A stretch of DNA of 15,612 bases, from the IMG/VR virus record IMGVR_UViG_2778261247_000017. One strand, 5' to 3'. Under the pieces are notes generated by a model. The model was not told the DNA's origin and searched no databases. It saw only the letters and a program-made list of their open reading frames with translations. This document shows, one piece after another, positions 7,430-15,612 of the stretch (positions are counted from its first letter, which is position 1; every line of letters starts with the position of its first letter). Source of the DNA: a virus (taxonomy: Duplodnaviria > Heunggongvirae > Uroviricota > Caudoviricetes). The translations under genes and the position numbers were made by a program.

Positions 7430-7660
7430 ACCTGTTCACCTTTTTCCTTTTCTCCTTTTAATTCATTGTGTTAATGGGTGAACAGTTTCACAAAAACTAT
7501 TCACCAACTGTTCACCACTGTTCACCCTTAAAGCTCAACAAATAATCAAAAAGGTGAACAGTGAATAGTTTGATGAACAGTTCATGAATAACTGTTCACC
7601 CTATAACCAACTGATATAGAACACATTTATTACAGGGTGAACAGTGATGAACAGTTATTC
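7430..7660. repeat. replication origin-like iteron cluster of TGTTCACC octamers (P4 ori/crr type)
   Basis: Perfect TGTTCACC at 7433, 7509, 7519 and 7593; perfect reverse copies GGTGAACA at 7477, 7553 and 7636; degenerate copies at 7498, 7561, 7574 and 7647. AT-rich flanks. Lies immediately 3' of the primase/helicase gene. Confidence 0.6.
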
Positions 7661-7667
7661 CATAAGT

Positions 7668-9482
7668 TTAATTTTTGCCATCGTCATTTGTGACCGATGC
7701 ACATGAGGGCATCCAGTCTTCTGAATCCTCTGTCAGTATCACGTTTGAACGCAAGCCATGCTTCGTTTTCCGTTTCATATACTCCCTGCCGTATTCCGCC
7801 ATTGCCCCTGGCATATCCTTACCGAAGCGTGTCAGTGTTACGGGCTTACCGAATCCGTGTGCCCTCATATACGCCAGATAGGCGTGATAGAGATACCTGC
7901 GCGGGCTGAACGGAATAATTTCAGCATTACCCACTAACAGGCCATCGCACATTACCGACGACATGAGATAGCCGCAGAAGTCCACCAGCGAATCGCCCTC
8001 GCGTTTTATCACTAGGGCTTCTTCTGATTTCTGCTGCTCATATAGCAGGCGTTTAGCTTCGTCCTGGTCAGAAAAGCGTGTAAGCAGGTGGCGAATCACT
8101 ACCGCCAGCTCTCCTTCTATTTTTTCAGCCAGCATAGGGTCACGTTCGTTCTCCGGTACAACTTCCGAAAAATTGAATATTACCCGACGACGTGATATCC
8201 CACCGCTGCGGTCACTGAATGACATGGCGTTATTGTTCACCGCCAGCACGACCGCCTGAATGCGTGTTGAGTAGGGGGCTTTATGTTTCGGGTCGATTGC
8301 CACCTTATCACCGCCTGTAATGGCCTTAATTCCTGCACCATCACCAGCGTAACGGGTCATATCCGGCATAATAATCAGCGAAAAGCCAACCACTAACGCG
8401 CGTTCCCTGGCATCTTCCAGCGCCTTCATGCTTGCCGATACCGTGTTGGCCTTACCCGCCAGCATAGTGCAAATCTCCGCCATTACGCTTTTACCGCTTC
8501 CACCCGGCCCCGTTACCTCAAGAAATAACTGCCAGTCGTACCGATTCGCCAGCACCATGAATAACGCCGCCAGTACGCGATCCGCTTTGCGTTCATTCTC
8601 TGCCACCGAACGGCGCAACCATTTCCAGAAATTCGGCGCATGCGTTGCCAGCGTTTCCCCCTCTGCTGGCGGGTTGAACGGTAATTCACTGGCAATTAAC
8701 AACCAGTCGTTTTTGTCGTGCTCCCGAAAATCGCCTGTCCGGGTATCAAAAACACCGTTACTGAATCCAATCAGGTTACGGGCGGTATTCCCCATTACGG
8801 GCAAACTTAACTTCATGGTATCGACCGCCGATTTGATGGCGTTCTGCGAATAGCTGATTTCCGCATCAATAAAAATCTGCGCCATAGCCCGCTGTAACTC
8901 TTTATCCTGTACCGGCTCCCATACAACACCGTTGTAGTGGTGAACGGTGTCAGAATCCGCATTGATTGCCAGTTCACCGCCATAATGTGCCAGGAGAACT
9001 TCGCCGCGCTGGCTTGCTCCCATCTGGTTAAGTGCCAGTGGTGTCGCGCTGTCTTCTGTTTTTTTCTTTGCCGGAAACCGGATAATCAGTCCGTCATCAA
9101 TGTTTTTACGCTCACGGGCAAGGTATTCACGCCAGTTTTCACACTTCTGGCTGTGCATGCCATCAGGGTAATAATTCGCATTCTGTATACTTGCCGCCGC
9201 CAGCTTCTGACCAATTGCCTTAACCATTACAGGATCTAACTGTCCGGCTCTGAATATGCGCGCGGATGTGCGCCCATCAGGCACTATTTGCAGATTTCCG
9301 ATCTCTTTCAGTTGTTCATCAGCCAGCACAACAGGTGGCTCATTATCTCCAGCCATACGCGCATCGTGCTCCTGCCATTGTTTCGCGTGTGCCCAGGCAT
9401 CACTACCCGCGAAAATAATTACCTCTGTGTCTTTGTGTTTTATTCCGCGTGGCTGTTTTTTTACGTTCGGTGCCAGTTTCAT
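7668..9482 (-). CDS. replication initiator: P4-alpha-like primase / SF3 helicase with C-terminal DNA-binding region
   Basis: 604 aa; ATG at 9480-9482 preceded by GGGGGG. Walker A GPGGSGKS in mid-protein. Overall layout matches phage/plasmid P4-family primase C-terminal proteins. Followed by cognate-looking iterons. Confidence 0.85.
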   Translation of the reverse strand: MKLAPNVKKQPRGIKHKDTEVIIFAGSDAWAHAKQWQEHDARMAGDNEPPVVLADEQLKEIGNLQIVPDGRTSARIFRAGQLDPVMVKAIGQKLAAASIQNANYYPDGMHSQKCENWREYLARERKNIDDGLIIRFPAKKKTEDSATPLALNQMGASQRGEVLLAHYGGELAINADSDTVHHYNGVVWEPVQDKELQRAMAQIFIDAEISYSQNAIKSAVDTMKLSLPVMGNTARNLIGFSNGVFDTRTGDFREHDKNDWLLIASELPFNPPAEGETLATHAPNFWKWLRRSVAENERKADRVLAALFMVLANRYDWQLFLEVTGPGGSGKSVMAEICTMLAGKANTVSASMKALEDARERALVVGFSLIIMPDMTRYAGDGAGIKAITGGDKVAIDPKHKAPYSTRIQAVVLAVNNNAMSFSDRSGGISRRRVIFNFSEVVPENERDPMLAEKIEGELAVVIRHLLTRFSDQDEAKRLLYEQQKSEEALVIKREGDSLVDFCGYLMSSVMCDGLLVGNAEIIPFSPRRYLYHAYLAYMRAHGFGKPVTLTRFGKDMPGAMAEYGREYMKRKTKHGLRSNVILTEDSEDWMPSCASVTNDDGKN

Positions 9483-10510: not shown

Positions 10511-10727
10511 GGTGCACCTCCTGCACATCAGCCATGATAATTTTTCCGGCCTTATCCAGTGCCTGATCGGCTTTTAGCTGCACAAATGCTAAATAATGGA
10601 AGATGCATTCTGATTCTCTGGCTGCGTGTTTATGCGCCACACCAGCGATAGCAGAAATCTCAATAAGTGAATCCATCAGCGTTTTGATAGCGTCTACCGC
10701 TGCATCAGGCCATGTTGCATTACACAT
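10503..10727 (-). CDS. small hypothetical protein (74 aa)
   Basis: ATG at 10725-10727 preceded by AGGAGGTG; 8-nt overlap ATGTGTAA with the upstream gene. Confidence 0.5.
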   Translation of the reverse strand: MCNATWPDAAVDAIKTLMDSLIEISAIAGVAHKHAARESECIFHYLAFVQLKADQALDKAGKIIMADVQEVHHA

Positions 10728-11085
10728 GCTCCACCTCCTGGCGAATACGGGCGGCGAATACCATCACGCAGCCATCAGGAGATTGCTGGCGTGCTTCCTG
10801 TTCGCTGGTGGCCTCGATGTGAATTACACGCGGTTGTGCTGTGCTCAGGGCGATAAAACGCCATATAAAATTGTTTTCGCATTTCTGAATAAACAGCGTG
10901 TTTTCTTCGCGCCCTTTCCATGTTGCCGAGATATAGCCCATGTCATTGAGCATCTCGCAGGCATCAACCAGCGTATCGGCGGCTATGTGTACAGTGTTTT
11001 TACCGTCAGCGATGCAATCACGGTGCACCGCCAGGAAGGTGTATATAAATTTAGGGTGAGTTTGGGTATGCTGTGTTCCAGCCAT
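10720..11085 (-). CDS. hypothetical protein (121 aa), first gene of the leftward replication operon
   Basis: ATG at 11083-11085 (MAGTQHTQTH) preceded by GAGGTAACG. Protein-like translation. This is the C-terminal, believable part of the 512-codon stop-free frame. Confidence 0.6.
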   Translation of the reverse strand: MAGTQHTQTHPKFIYTFLAVHRDCIADGKNTVHIAADTLVDACEMLNDMGYISATWKGREENTLFIQKCENNFIWRFIALSTAQPRVIHIEATSEQEARQQSPDGCVMVFAARIRQEVEHV

Positions 11086-11174
11086 AATCGTTACCTCGTT
11101 TAACGGTTTGGTTAGACGCCCCGCTACTGCCGCAAACAGTTCGGGGCGTTGTCGTTTACATCCTCTTACCGAGG

Positions 11175-11250
11175 TGTGATTTAAATTAAATTTAACTGAA
11201 TCACAGGTCAAGTATTTTTTGTGATTCTTTTTTGTGTATACTGAATCACA
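11175..11250. promoter_or_regulatory. divergent control region with two TGTGATT-N17-AATCACA inverted-repeat operators and a TATACT -10 candidate
   Basis: IR1 is TGTGATT (11175-11181) paired with AATCACA (11199-11205). IR2 is TGTGATT (11220-11226) paired with AATCACA (11244-11250), identical 17-bp spacing. TATACT at 11237-11242 overlaps IR2, 31 bp before the ATG at 11273. Confidence 0.5.
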
Positions 11251-11272
11251 TCTTTTGTTTAGGAGAATGCAC

Positions 11273-11578
11273 ATGGCAAAAAACACTATCAACGACAAAT
11301 CAAAACAGATTTCAATTCGTATCCCACATGATGCTTTTGAAGGCATGGAATCCGTAAAACTGGACGGCGAAAGCAACGCCGGATTCATCGTAACCGCTAT
11401 GCGCGGTGAGATCGCCCGCCGCCAGGCAGAAGGAAGAGGAGAAAATCCCTTGGTTTCTTCGCTCGATGCACTGGCGCAGGTGGAAAAAATCGGAGTCAAA
11501 GCTGCCGAGGAGATCGGGCAACTCATCACCGTCGCGCGTGAAGAACTCCAGCGCCGCAAGGCCAAAGAACAGGAGTAA
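11273..11578 (+). CDS. small regulator-like protein (101 aa), possibly the element's repressor
   Basis: ATG at 11273 preceded by AGGAGA with a 6-nt spacer. Helical, charged translation with an N-terminal KQISIRIPHDAFEGM segment that could be a ribbon-helix-helix strand. Divergent from the replication operon and flanked by the operators. Confidence 0.6.
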   Translation: MAKNTINDKSKQISIRIPHDAFEGMESVKLDGESNAGFIVTAMRGEIARRQAEGRGENPLVSSLDALAQVEKIGVKAAEEIGQLITVAREELQRRKAKEQE

Positions 11579-11635
11579 CCATCACCAGCGCCGTGGTGTG
11601 AGGAACTACGGTGCATCGTTTTACAGGGCAGCGCC

Positions 11636-11836
11636 ATGACCAACAAAGAATCAACCAATACACCATCACCGGCACGGAAAAGACAGCGCAGAAAGATAGC
11701 GTACGAGTATGAGTCAGACAGATTCGCGCCCTGTGCGTTTATCCTTGAGAAATTCCTTAAAGAGTACAGGCGCACAAAAATGGGGTCGCATACCTGGAAA
11801 ACATCGCGGCATGGCAATGTTAAAGAGCAGGAATAG
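11636..11836 (+). CDS. possible small basic protein (66 aa)
   Basis: In the same frame as 11273-11578, separated by a single TAA and 19 sense codons. Weak SD. Translation is plausible but the call is uncertain. Confidence 0.3.
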   Translation: MTNKESTNTPSPARKRQRRKIAYEYESDRFAPCAFILEKFLKEYRRTKMGSHTWKTSRHGNVKEQE

Positions 11837-11865
11837 CCCACCAGCAAGCCAGCACACTGATCACA

Positions 11866-12258
11866 TTGCCCACCAGCCGCAAATCTGGCATTGTTGGTGA
11901 TGCGTTCAAGTGTGTAGCTTTCCCACTGGTGGCCCTCTGCGGTCGCCTTTGTTTTATCCAGAACGAAATCAGACATCAGATTGGTCAGCACCTGGCGACC
12001 TGACAAAATCGCATCAGTCGCGCCACCAGCAAAATTTTTTGCTCTCCGGACAGCGTGACCAACGGCATTTTGCAGCAAAATATTCTGCATTTCTGGTGTG
12101 CTGTAGTAACGGTGATCAGCGCCTTCACTCTGTGCGACCACAACGCTATAATCTGCCTCGTAGACAGTAAGCAATATGGCGCAGTAGGCTATTCGTTCAC
12201 AAAGGCGCTCCGGCAACGGGGCGCTTTCTCTTTTTGTAACGGTCAGAACGTTACACAT
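11866..12258 (-). CDS. hypothetical protein; N-terminal about 130 codons are convincing, C-terminus unresolved
   Basis: ATG at 12256-12258 preceded by GGAGGA with an 8-nt spacer; 8-nt overlap ATGTGTAA with the antirepressor stop. The frame has no stop before 10720, so the 11866 end is my estimate of where the protein-like sequence ends. A Cys cluster C-x2-C-x8-C-x5-C follows. Confidence 0.4.
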
Positions 12259-13128: not shown

Positions 13129-13326
13129 TCAGGTAGCTGTTCCACGTGATTCCGCAATACGCTGATTAATCCACTCGTCAATTTCACTCTCAACGAAAGC
13201 AATAGCTCGCGAGCCAATTTTAACTGATGCAGGAAATTTGCCTTGCCCCATAAGGCGATAAATCCATGCCTTGCTATATCCAGTTCTACGCTGAACTTCC
13301 GTTAAACGAATAAGAGAGTTTGCCAT
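13129..13326 (-). CDS. alpA: AlpA-family phage transcriptional regulator / excisionase-like (Vis-like)
   Basis: 65 aa; ATG at 13324-13326 preceded by AAGGTGA. Motif LIRLTEVQRRTGYSKAWIYRLMGQGKFP is the AlpA/Vis HTH signature. Confidence 0.9.
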   Translation of the reverse strand: MANSLIRLTEVQRRTGYSKAWIYRLMGQGKFPASVKIGSRAIAFVESEIDEWINQRIAESRGTAT

Positions 13327-13529
13327 ATATTCACCTTGTAACGTCTATAAAGGTGTACATAGCTTGCATTAAGAAAAGTGATATTTATAGATGCTTACCA
13401 TTATGAATGGCGAATACCATTTCAGTGAAATAGCTCCACCTTTTTTTAATAATGGCGTTTACTATTTTAAGTATCATGCTGACGTGAAACACGAAGAAAA
13501 ATTACTGTTCTTACGATTTAATCTGCATT

Positions 13530-14397: not shown

Positions 14398-15612
14398 TCA
14401 CCCGCATTTTCCGAACTCACCATGCACCACATTTCCGCCATGCTCGAGCGAATCCATATAGTCGGCATACCACTGGAGCATCTCTCGGCGACCATCCAGA
14501 TATTGCGCATGGTTGTATGTGCCACGAATTGAGTTTTTATCGACGTGTGCGAGCTGTGTCTCTATCCACGCGGTGTTATAGCCCTGCTCATGCAAAATGG
14601 TGCTCATGGTGTGCCGGAATCCATGACCAGTAACCTTTCCGTTATAGCCGATGCGTTTAAATACTTGGTTTATGCTAGCCTCGCTCATTGTTTTCCTTGG
14701 ATCATTACGGCCGGGAAACATAAGCGGATAATTGCCAGTTAATTCTTTAATCTGCCCAATAAGCGAAAGAGCCTGCTTAGACAAAGGCACCACATGAGGG
14801 CGACGCATTTTCATCCGTGAAGCAGGTATCTCCCAGATAGCCTTGTTGAGATCGATTTCATCCCATAATGCACCGCGCAGTTCGCCAGTCCGCAAACCGG
14901 TGATAATCAGTAGACGAGCCGCCATAACAACCAATGCACTTCCTGAGTAACTGGACAATGCCTTGAAAAAATCAGGTAATTCTTTGGCTGTGAGGAAAGG
15001 ATAATGATTAGATTCATGACCTTGCATCGCGCTGGTGAGATCCGGTGCAGGGTTATACTCAGCACGTCCAGTGACAATTGCATAGCGGAAAACTTCCCCG
15101 CATCGCTGCCTCACTTTTTTGGCTTTTTCGGTAGCACCGCGCCCCTCGATGCGCCGCAGCACATTCAGCAGTTCAAGTGGTTTGATTTCGGTGATTGGTT
15201 TTTTGCCAATGTAAGGGAACACATCTTTATTGAAGGCTTCGAGGATGTCTGAAGCATAACCAGCAGACCATTTTTTTAATTTGCTGCAGTGCCACTCAAG
15301 GGCAATATCTTTGAAGGTGTTGTTTAACTGCGTTTTCCGGGCAATCTTTTCCTCTCGTTTCGCTTCCATCGGATCGATACCCCCAGCGATACCCCTTTTA
15401 GCTTCTTCACGTTTTGCACGAGCATCAGCCAAGGTAACTTCAGGATACACACCTAGTGCTAACAGCTTCTCTTTACCAGCTACACGATACTTGAAGCGCC
15501 AATATTTTCCTCCACTAGGTTTTACCAAGAGATACAGACCACCACCATCAGCCAGCTTGTAAGCCTTCTCTTTTGGCTTGGCAGTGTCTATTTGACGGGC
15601 ATTGAGTTTCAC
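14398..15612 (-). CDS. int: P4-family tyrosine integrase (site-specific recombinase)
   Basis: 404 codons from a GTG at the window edge (the true start may lie just outside). N-terminal arm-binding-type region (LYLLVKPSGGKYWRFKYR) and a C-terminal catalytic region with conserved residues of this family (GLRTGELRGALWDEID, HGFRHT, LAHVD, GTYNHAQY). Confidence 0.9.
   Translation of the reverse strand: MKLNARQIDTAKPKEKAYKLADGGGLYLLVKPSGGKYWRFKYRVAGKEKLLALGVYPEVTLADARAKREEAKRGIAGGIDPMEAKREEKIARKTQLNNTFKDIALEWHCSKLKKWSAGYASDILEAFNKDVFPYIGKKPITEIKPLELLNVLRRIEGRGATEKAKKVRQRCGEVFRYAIVTGRAEYNPAPDLTSAMQGHESNHYPFLTAKELPDFFKALSSYSGSALVVMAARLLIITGLRTGELRGALWDEIDLNKAIWEIPASRMKMRRPHVVPLSKQALSLIGQIKELTGNYPLMFPGRNDPRKTMSEASINQVFKRIGYNGKVTGHGFRHTMSTILHEQGYNTAWIETQLAHVDKNSIRGTYNHAQYLDGRREMLQWYADYMDSLEHGGNVVHGEFGKCG

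What the first reader, a model, noticed from the sequence alone, without database searches (positions are those of the whole stretch)
7430..7660. P4-type iteron origin immediately 3' of the primase/helicase
Seven perfect and several degenerate TGTTCACC octamers in both orientations lie within 230 bp. This is the octamer I recall as the type I iteron bound by P4 alpha protein at ori and crr. Here the origin sits directly downstream of the initiator gene, a PICI/SaPI-like arrangement, rather than kilobases away as in P4.
Basis: partly seen in the sequence, partly recalled or inferred. Interest (0 to 1): 0.5.

Follow-up and report, generated by a model that had tools for sequence, protein, structure and literature searches.

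The report
PICI replication origin using P4 iterons
The 230-bp repeat cluster is almost certainly the replication origin of a phage-satellite-type island (PICI) in the E. coli chromosome; this kind of origin is already published, and the new detail is that it uses the binding sites of satellite phage P4 and joins P4's two separate origin parts into one.

Summary
There are seven perfect TGTTCACC octamers at 7433-7643, against 0.5 expected in the whole window. Five degenerate copies sit at conserved positions, giving 12 sites. They start 14 bp after the stop codon of a 604-aa SF3 helicase/origin-binding protein.

The sites form two mirror-image six-site modules around a 77% A+T centre. Each module has the layout of the phage P4 ori. 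By spacer sequence, the gene-proximal module resembles P4 ori and the gene-distal module resembles P4 crr.

The protein's C-terminal domain matches the solved P4 alpha origin-binding domain (E 1.6e-23). The island (int, alpA, pri-rep, perC, all on one strand, at tRNA-Thr/proA of E. coli DE17) is a Gram-negative PICI-type element.

Origins placed 3' of pri-rep in such islands were described in 2018 and tested in EcCICFT073. That origin has the same 12-site layout but uses TGTCTACC. The same layout lies 3' of homologous genes in at least 10 genera.

P4's crr also lies directly 3' of alpha. The protein lacks P4's zinc-ribbon primase and has only a Toprim-like remnant.

Verdict: a real origin, a new member of a known kind, of modest interest.

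The parts
7425..7653 (.). Composite iteron origin: 12 octamer sites in two mirror-image modules
7553..7653 (-). Gene-proximal module (P4 ori-like). Read on the minus strand: 2 direct sites, a 35-bp A+T-rich spacer, 1 inverted site, 13 bp, then 3 direct sites
   Evidence: Same layout and spacing as P4 ori 9310-9413. Spacer 7601-7635 is 69% identical to the P4 ori spacer; 0/500 shuffles reach that score
7425..7526 (+). Gene-distal module (P4 crr-like). Read on the plus strand: 2 direct sites, a 36-bp spacer, 1 inverted site, 13 bp, then 3 direct sites
   Evidence: Spacer 7441-7476 is 72-78% identical to the two P4 crr spacers; 0/500 shuffles reach that score. Alignment
7527..7552 (.). 26-bp centre, 77% A+T, between the two facing triplets of sites; candidate melting region
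   Evidence: Published PICI origins have two iteron sets flanking an AT-rich region
7425..7432 (+). iteron CCTTCACC (2 mismatches)
   Evidence: site position conserved
7433..7440 (+). iteron TGTTCACC
7477..7484 (-). iteron TGTTCACC
7498..7505 (+). iteron TATTCACC (1 mismatch)
7509..7516 (+). iteron TGTTCACC
7519..7526 (+). iteron TGTTCACC
7553..7560 (-). iteron TGTTCACC
7560..7567 (-). iteron TATTCACT (2 mismatches; abuts the previous site)
   Evidence: site position conserved
7572..7579 (-). iteron TGTTCATC (1 mismatch)
7593..7600 (+). iteron TGTTCACC
7636..7643 (-). iteron TGTTCACC
7646..7653 (-). iteron TGTTCATC (1 mismatch); 14 bp from the stop codon
7668..9482 (-). Pri-Rep initiator, 604 aa (D5_N, DUF5906, Pox_D5)
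7707..7997 (-). C-terminal winged-helix origin-binding domain (aa 496-592)
   Evidence: 1KA8 (P4 alpha domain) E=1.6e-23. 47% identical to P4 alpha, 34% to the EcCICFT073 protein, which uses a different iteron
8043..9005 (-). D5_N plus SF3 helicase core (aa 160-480; Walker A GPGGSGKS)
9093..9482 (-). N-terminal domain (aa 1-130): Toprim-like fold, no zinc ribbon, no primase family hit
13129..13326 (-). alpA (PICI activator homologue)
   Evidence: Phage_AlpA E=2.4e-19
14398..15612 (-). tyrosine integrase next to tRNA-Thr/proA

Best explanation
7425-7653 is the replication origin of a PICI-type chromosomal island, recognised by the island's own 604-aa Pri-Rep protein.

Inferred mechanism. Once the island's operon is switched on, the C-terminal winged-helix domains of Pri-Rep bind the TGTTCACC octamers. 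In Gram-negative PICIs the switch is AlpA, triggered by a helper phage. The 12 sites form two mirror-image six-site modules, so two hexamers of the SF3 helicase load facing each other. They melt the A+T-rich DNA between or within the modules and start bidirectional theta replication. This is the model proposed for SaPI Rep proteins and is analogous to P4 alpha acting at ori plus crr.

In evolutionary terms the locus is P4's ori and crr placed side by side. In P4 the same two module types keep the same relative orientation but are separated by the 4.7-kb alpha operon.

Shown here: the sites and their statistics; the architecture and its conservation; the homology of the DNA-binding domain; the island context. 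Taken from the literature: a homologously placed, identically built origin is required for Pri-Rep-driven plasmid replication in EcCICFT073. Inferred: binding, double-hexamer loading, the melting site, and the source of primers, which is unknown.
For: Enrichment: 7 perfect sites in 211 bp against 0.5 expected per window.

P4 annotation: the P4 record marks these octamers as ori/crr type 1 repeats.

Initiator homology: 50% identical to P4 alpha over the helicase and DNA-binding domain. The C-terminus matches 1KA8 at E=1.6e-23.

Architecture: the layout 2 sites / 35-36 bp / 1 inverted site / 13-14 bp / 3 sites is shared by both window modules, P4 ori, cf-PICI vB_KppS-Ant and EcCICFT073.

Conservation: 16 loci from at least 10 genera have this locus about 15-80 bp 3' of the homologous gene, and as the only cluster present. 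Iteron columns are 0.91 conserved against 0.66 for spacers (Mann-Whitney p=4e-19).

Specificity tracks the binding domain: proteins with TGTTCACC origins share 47-81% identity in that domain, while EcCICFT073 (TGTCTACC) shares 34%.

Experimental precedent: deleting ori or pri abolishes EcCICFT073 pri-rep-ori plasmid maintenance (PMC6092414). SaPI origins are 6-12 iterons immediately 3' of rep, arranged around an AT-rich centre and bound by a C-terminal winged helix (PMC9371898).

Spacer orthology: distal module to crr, proximal module to ori.

Island context: int, alpA, pri-rep and perC are all on one strand at tRNA-Thr.
Against: Nothing was tested experimentally on this sequence.

The island shows decay. 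The ssb-like and ProQ/FinO genes are annotated as frameshifted and the icd-like gene as partial. There are no capsid genes and no lambda-type cosN, whereas EcCICFT073 has two. The origin may therefore no longer be used.

Five of the 12 sites are degenerate, although sites at the equivalent positions are often degenerate in related origins too.

The protein lacks P4's primase region, so priming is unexplained.

The ori/crr assignment of the two modules rests on 35-bp spacers only.
Confidence: 0.85

Rival explanations
1. The cluster is only a crr-like cis-acting auxiliary element, as downstream of P4 alpha, and the true origin lies elsewhere in the island.
For: In P4 the cluster directly 3' of alpha is crr, not ori. 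The gene-distal module has a crr-like spacer.
Against: There is no other TGTTCACC cluster in the island or in 3 kb of flanks. The gene-proximal module has the complete six-site P4 ori layout and an ori-like spacer. In EcCICFT073 the equivalent locus is sufficient, together with pri-rep, for plasmid replication.
Confidence: 0.03
2. The sites act mainly as an operator, copy-number control (handcuffing) or incompatibility locus for Pri-Rep, regulating the downstream genes rather than starting replication.
For: The cluster lies inside a one-directional operon, between pri-rep and the next genes, with no terminator-like site between them. Iteron arrays in plasmids often also control copy number (general knowledge).
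Against: The mirror-image double module around an A+T-rich centre is origin architecture. The homologous locus was shown to be required for replication. Only weak promoter-like matches occur, and they lie outside the array. A regulatory role could exist alongside origin function.
Confidence: 0.05
3. It is a fossil origin in a decaying, immobile island and no longer fires.
For: Neighbouring genes are frameshifted or partial. There is no cosN and there are no capsid or packaging genes. Only int, alpA and pri-rep remain of the usual satellite core genes, which SatelliteFinder's scheme would call a low-confidence 'Type C' PICI (PMC10085698).
Against: The 604-aa ORF is intact, with its helicase motifs. 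All 12 site positions are occupied as in related origins. The same 301 bp is at least 99% identical in 11 genomes and at least 80% identical in 594 of 5,426 E. coli genomes.
Confidence: 0.2

Closest known systems
E. coli PICI origins, type example EcCICFT073 pri-rep-ori (Fillol-Salom et al. 2018, PMC6092414)
   Same: The position, immediately 3' of pri-rep. The 12-site mirror-image layout around an A+T-rich centre. The island organisation (int, alpA, small genes, DUF4222, pri-rep, ori, ssb-like, perC). The Pri-Rep N-terminal domain is 81% identical.
   Different: The octamer is TGTTCACC here and TGTCTACC there, and the DNA-binding domains are only 34% identical. The attachment site differs (tRNA-Thr/proA) and is not among the paper's listed E. 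coli sites. This island has no capsid genes and no lambda cosN.
Satellite phage P4 ori and crr with alpha protein
   Same: An identical octamer (the type I iteron). The same six-site module and spacing as P4 ori. Spacer similarity to both ori and crr. A homologous helicase and winged-helix origin-binding domain.
   Different: In P4 the two elements are 4.7 kb apart, with the alpha operon between them, and crr is a 120-bp direct duplication. Here they abut as an inverted pair. There is no array of P4 type II repeats. The protein lacks alpha's N-terminal zinc-ribbon/Toprim primase. No sid, delta or psu genes are annotated.
cf-PICI vB_KppS-Ant (LR881103) and related Klebsiella, Raoultella, Citrobacter and Pectobacterium islands
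   Same: The initiator is 74% identical overall and 81-93% in the helicase and DNA-binding regions. The origin has the same octamer and the same layout and starts about 30 bp 3' of the gene.
   Different: Those elements carry capsid, portal and terminase genes. Their N-terminal domain is only about 30% identical.
SaPI origins with Rep / Pri-Rep (Staphylococcus aureus)
   Same: 6-12 iterons immediately 3' of rep, in opposite orientations around an AT-rich centre, read by a C-terminal winged helix of a self-loading hexameric helicase (PMC9371898).
   Different: SaPI iterons are unrelated 5-6-mers. No sequence similarity of the proteins to this one was detected or looked for here.

Membership tests
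Gram-negative PICI replication origin | Lies immediately 3' of the pri-rep gene | tested here: met
   First site is 14 bp after the stop codon
Gram-negative PICI replication origin | [quoted passage not shown] | tested here: met
   Two six-site modules; centre 77% A+T; region 28-35% G+C
Gram-negative PICI replication origin | Same architecture as the experimentally tested EcCICFT073 origin | tested here: met
   Module alignment and site map
Gram-negative PICI replication origin | Supports Pri-Rep-dependent replication | not testable with these tools
   Shown only for EcCICFT073
Gram-negative PICI (the island) | int, alpA and pri-rep transcribed in one direction, at a specific attachment site, with no phage tail or lysis genes | tested here: met
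Gram-negative PICI (the island) | Packaging or hijacking functions (cos site, capsid-redirection or terS-type genes) and helper-phage induction | tested here: inconclusive
   No lambda cosN within 2 mismatches, against two in EcCICFT073. No capsid genes are annotated. Other packaging signals and induction were not tested.
P4 ori/crr system | Type I iteron TGTTCACC in clustered, two-orientation arrays | tested here: met
P4 ori/crr system | Initiator with an alpha-type C-terminal origin-binding domain and SF3 helicase | tested here: met
   1KA8 E=1.6e-23; 65% identity in the helicase core and 47% in the binding domain
P4 ori/crr system | Origin split into two elements, ori and crr, several kb apart | tested here: not met
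   A single locus with both module types adjacent
P4 ori/crr system | Type II decamer repeats beside the type I sites | tested here: not met
   One 1-mismatch copy at 7525-7534, not above chance
P4 ori/crr system | Initiator carries an N-terminal zinc-ribbon/Toprim primase | tested here: not met
   hhalign aligns only aa 114-174 to alpha 288-350. No primase family hit. The fold is weakly Toprim-like.
P4-like satellite (the island) | psu, delta, sid and epsilon genes | tested here: not met
   None are annotated in the source genome, and no such family appears in the Pfam or PHROG scans of the larger ORFs. Not every small ORF was scanned.

The most novel reading that the evidence does not exclude
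P4's puzzling two-part origin (ori plus a distant, cis-required crr) may be a split version of an older one-piece mirror-image origin that PICIs, cf-PICIs and some full-length alpha genes (Gilliamella, Xenorhabdus) still carry directly 3' of the initiator. The TGTTCACC origin cassette may also be far older and more mobile than either satellite family. Clusters of 8-9 perfect copies with the same sub-architecture lie directly 3' of VapE-like, DUF5906 and AAA_25 helicase genes in Firmicutes, Bacteroidota, Chloroflexota and Alphaproteobacteria.
Probability: 0.45. Interest if true: 0.55.

Novelty: new member of a known kind. Interest (0 to 1): 0.33.

Why it matters
This gives a concrete, testable origin for a very common class of E. 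coli islands: about 11% of complete genomes carry this origin type.

It ties the PICI and P4 replication modules together more closely than the literature does. Published work describes the Pri-Rep/alpha relationship as distant, or as analogy rather than homology, and calls the PICI origin layout unique to PICIs.

It also offers a simple explanation of why P4 needs crr: the initiator needs two iteron modules, which are adjacent here and looped together in P4.

Practically, matching pairs of iteron and DNA-binding domain (TGTTCACC against TGTCTACC) predict which islands can cross-activate each other's replication or be incompatible.

Tried and rejected
Second iteron cluster, P4-style: none in the window or in 3 kb of flanks.

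Inverted pair of one-mismatch sites at 13328-13359, just upstream of alpA: not above chance.

P4 type II repeats: one degenerate copy only.

Promoter and terminator scan of 7000-7800: nothing above shuffled expectation, and no terminator between the gene and the array.

Literature search for the octamer string returned only unrelated primer hits. Searches linking P4 iterons to PICI origins, or VapE proteins to iterons, found nothing specific. The original P4 alpha paper (PMC413647) is not held, so alpha-iteron binding rests on the GenBank annotation, the 1KA8 match and general knowledge.

Direct blastn of the origin against phage records finds only vB_KppS-Ant. The similarity to P4 lies in architecture and short spacers, not in a long alignment.

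hhalign of the VapE-type C-termini against the alpha binding domain was weak (E=0.035, probability 1.5%), so homology of those domains is not established.

PADLOC found no defence-system match for the DUF4747 gene pair.

Full report
**Observation**

TGTTCACC occurs eight times in the window. Seven copies lie within 211 bp (7433-7643), in both orientations. Shuffles that preserve dinucleotide content give 0.5 copies per window and never more than 3.

Allowing mismatches adds TATTCACC at 7498 and TGTTCATC at 7572 and 7646. It also adds CCTTCACC at 7425 and TATTCACT at 7560. Outside the cluster, one-mismatch hits are at background level.

The region is 28-35% G+C against about 50% on both sides. 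The 604-aa ORF runs 7668-9482 on the minus strand, so the nearest site ends 14 bp beyond its stop codon.

**Anatomy**

The 12 sites are not a loose scatter.

- On the plus strand, 7425-7526 reads: two direct sites, a 36-bp spacer, one inverted site, 13 bp, three direct sites.
- On the minus strand, 7553-7653 reads the same way: two sites, 35 bp, one inverted site, 13 bp, three sites.

The locus is therefore an inverted duplication of a six-site module. The two triplets face each other across a 26-bp centre that is 77% A+T.

**The protein**

Pfam finds D5_N, DUF5906 and Pox_D5. Residues 125-594 are 50% identical to P4 alpha. Residues 496-592 match the solved P4 alpha origin-binding winged-helix domain, 1KA8, at E=1.6e-23.

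The first 113 or so residues do not align with alpha. A profile comparison aligns only aa 114-174 to alpha 288-350. Neither Pfam nor NCBIfam finds a primase domain there.

'Helicase plus origin binder' is therefore well supported, and 'primase' is not.

**Comparison with P4**

The P4 GenBank record annotates TGTTCACC octamers as 'ori type 1 repeat' in two places. One is ori (9310-9413). The other is crr (4291-4590), which begins 46 bp after the alpha stop codon.

P4 ori has the same six-site module, with spacings of 10, 11, 22, 43 and 10 bp against 10, 11, 21, 44 and 8 bp here.

The long spacers tell the two window modules apart.

- The gene-distal spacer (7441-7476) is 72-78% identical to the two crr spacers.
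- The gene-proximal spacer (7601-7635) is 69% identical to the ori spacer.
- In each case 0 of 500 shuffles reach the observed score, while the cross comparisons are not significant.

Read along the same strand, P4 has a crr-type module, then the alpha operon, then an ori-type module. The window has a crr-type module, then an ori-type module, then the alpha homologue. The relative orientation of the modules is the same in both.

P4 also has an iteron array directly 3' of alpha. What differs is that P4's ori-type module sits 4.7 kb away. These spacers are short, so I treat the ori/crr assignment as probable, not proven.

**Context**

The window is E. coli DE17 chromosome 3,722,307-3,737,918 (100% match). 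The island sits at tRNA-Thr next to proA, beside the vat toxin island.

All on the minus strand, it carries an integrase, an unnamed gene, alpA (E=2.4e-19), antA, small genes including DUF4222, pri-rep, the origin, an ssb-like gene, ProQ/FinO and perC. This is the Gram-negative PICI layout.

No sid, delta or psu genes are annotated, so it is not a P4-like satellite.

The island looks partly decayed. The ssb-like and ProQ genes are annotated as frameshifted. There are no capsid genes. There is no lambda-type cosN within two mismatches, whereas EcCICFT073 has two perfect copies.

**What is already known**

Fillol-Salom et al. 2018 (PMC6092414) state that in Gram-negative PICIs the region immediately 3' of the replication initiator is the origin. 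[quoted passage not shown] They showed that EcCICFT073 pri-rep-ori plasmids replicate, while ori and pri deletion mutants do not.

I fetched EcCICFT073. Its origin starts right after pri-rep and has the same 12-site mirror-image layout, but the octamer is TGTCTACC and no TGTTCACC is present.

The two proteins are 51% identical overall. By region the identities are:

| Region of the window protein | vs EcCICFT073 | vs P4 alpha |
|---|---|---|
| N-terminal domain | 81% | not aligned by profile comparison |
| Helicase core | 55% | 65% |
| DNA-binding domain | 34% | 47% |

Against the TGTTCACC-type cf-PICI vB_KppS-Ant, the helicase and DNA-binding regions are 81-93% identical. The protein is thus a mosaic, and iteron sequence follows the DNA-binding domain. 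This is what one expects if that domain reads the sites.

This island's attachment site is not among the E. coli sites listed in that paper. A near-identical copy of the origin in strain ABU 83972 falls inside a region the paper's supplement flags as 'PICI?'.

**Conservation**

The 301-bp region is at least 80% identical in 594 of 5,426 complete E. coli genomes.

A pattern scan of one genome per species returned 72 loci. In 16 of them the same composite array lies about 15-80 bp 3' of a homologous gene, and it is the only cluster present. The genera are Klebsiella, Raoultella, Citrobacter, Pectobacterium, Pluralibacter, Tatumella, Erwinia, Xenorhabdus, Gilliamella and Oceanisphaera, plus the phage-record entry vB_KppS-Ant.

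Across these loci, iteron columns are 0.91 conserved against 0.66 for spacer columns (p=4e-19).

Loci with a 777-aa P4-type alpha have two clusters, one 3' of the gene and one about 1.7-2.6 kb upstream. Gilliamella and Xenorhabdus combine a full-length alpha that has the zinc ribbon with the one-piece origin. The origin layout is therefore independent of the N-terminal domain type.

**Mechanism**

- Shown: site statistics, architecture, conservation and binding-domain homology.
- From the literature: the homologous locus is needed for replication. [quoted passage not shown]
- Inferred for this locus: Pri-Rep winged helices occupy the 12 sites, two SF3 hexamers assemble on the mirror-image modules, the A+T-rich DNA melts, and theta replication proceeds in both directions.

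The source of primers is unknown because the P4 primase region is missing.

**Rivals**

- A crr-like auxiliary element with the origin elsewhere. This is unlikely, since there is no other cluster.
- An operator or copy-control array. This is possible as an additional role, but the architecture and the EcCICFT073 result point to an origin.
- A fossil origin in a decaying island. This remains open, since the ORF and all site positions are intact but packaging functions are missing.

**Novelty**

PICI origins 3' of pri-rep and the P4 iteron are each known, so this is a new member of a known kind.

Some points I did not find in the searchable literature.

- A PICI/cf-PICI Pri-Rep allele uses P4's exact iteron and P4's ori module.
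- The one-piece PICI origin corresponds to P4 ori plus crr.

Published statements call the relationship distant or analogous, and call the origin layout unique to PICIs. The library is incomplete, so prior description elsewhere cannot be excluded.

**A wider lead, not followed to the end**

TGTTCACC clusters with 8-9 perfect copies and the same sub-pattern of pair, single inverted site and triplet lie directly 3' of helicase genes from other families in distant phyla.

- VapE-like genes in Acetatifactor, Dehalococcoidia, Oscillospiraceae and Alistipes.
- A DUF5906 gene in Mogibacterium.
- An AAA_25 plus winged-helix gene in Beijerinckia.

The scan pattern itself required three sites with these spacings, so only the extra copies and the gene adjacency count as independent evidence. 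Homology of the C-terminal domains to the alpha domain is not established.

Noticed in passing
L018:2344-2823, L022:1560-1810, L048:1245-1486, L053:1052-1323, L017:850-1053, L016:695-880: Dense TGTTCACC clusters (5-14 perfect copies) lie directly 3' of helicase genes from other families in distant phyla. Four are VapE-like (Acetatifactor, Dehalococcoidia, Oscillospiraceae, Alistipes), one is DUF5906 (Mogibacterium) and one is AAA_25 plus a winged helix (Beijerinckia). The same octamer may serve as origin iteron well beyond P4 and PICIs.
   Followed up: partly
[not shown]
   Followed up: partly
window 7668-9482 compared with L004:5242-6996: The Pri-Rep protein is a mosaic. Its N-terminal 125 aa are 81% identical to EcCICFT073 Pri-Rep, but its helicase and DNA-binding regions are closer to the Klebsiella cf-PICI protein (81-93%) and to P4 alpha. 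This suggests recombination between initiator alleles.
   Followed up: yes
L063 (Gilliamella) 4313-6900 and L075 (Xenorhabdus) 161-2853: Full-length P4-type alpha genes (783 and 810 aa; the Gilliamella protein shows the P4-type N-terminal CxxC zinc-ribbon motif) carry the one-piece mirror-image origin directly 3' of the gene instead of P4's split ori/crr.
   Followed up: partly
window 6519-7140 and 5909-6439: The genes just beyond the origin look decayed. An ssb-like gene is split into two ORFs and annotated as frameshifted, and ProQ/FinO is annotated as frameshifted in the source genome. The icd-like gene at about 10720 is annotated as partial.
   Followed up: partly
whole window compared with L004: There is no lambda-type cosN (GGGCGGCGACCT, up to 2 mismatches) and there are no capsid genes in this island. 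EcCICFT073 has two perfect cosN copies plus capsid and decoration genes. The island may not be packageable by lambdoid cos phages.
   Followed up: partly
window 13328-13359: TATTCACC and GGTGTACA form an inverted pair of one-mismatch iteron-like sites 16 bp apart, right upstream of the alpA start codon. In P4 the ori lies just upstream of the alpA/vis homologue. The pair is not above chance on the counts.
   Followed up: partly
window 2153-3645: A DUF4747 gene (E=9.5e-98) and an overlapping 199-aa gene sit in the island's accessory region, where satellites often carry defence systems. PADLOC finds no match.
   Followed up: partly
window 960-1298, and L077 1-4298: A remnant of a second integrase (Arm DNA-binding domain only) lies between this island and a MarR-family gene and the vat autotransporter toxin gene. 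Two islands therefore appear to sit in tandem at tRNA-Thr.
   Followed up: no
window 10720-12258: A 512-aa ORF with no family hit overlaps several small genes annotated in the source genome, including a partial icd-like gene and two plus-strand genes. It is probably not a real gene.
   Followed up: no
hits H57-H60: Other E. coli strains have the same island backbone at about 96% identity, but with a DUF927-domain protein in place of this Pri-Rep. The replication module appears to be swapped as a cassette.
   Followed up: no
L002 4281-4289 (P4): The P4 crr region is preceded by TTATCCACA, a perfect DnaA-box consensus. No equivalent was looked for in the window.
   Followed up: no
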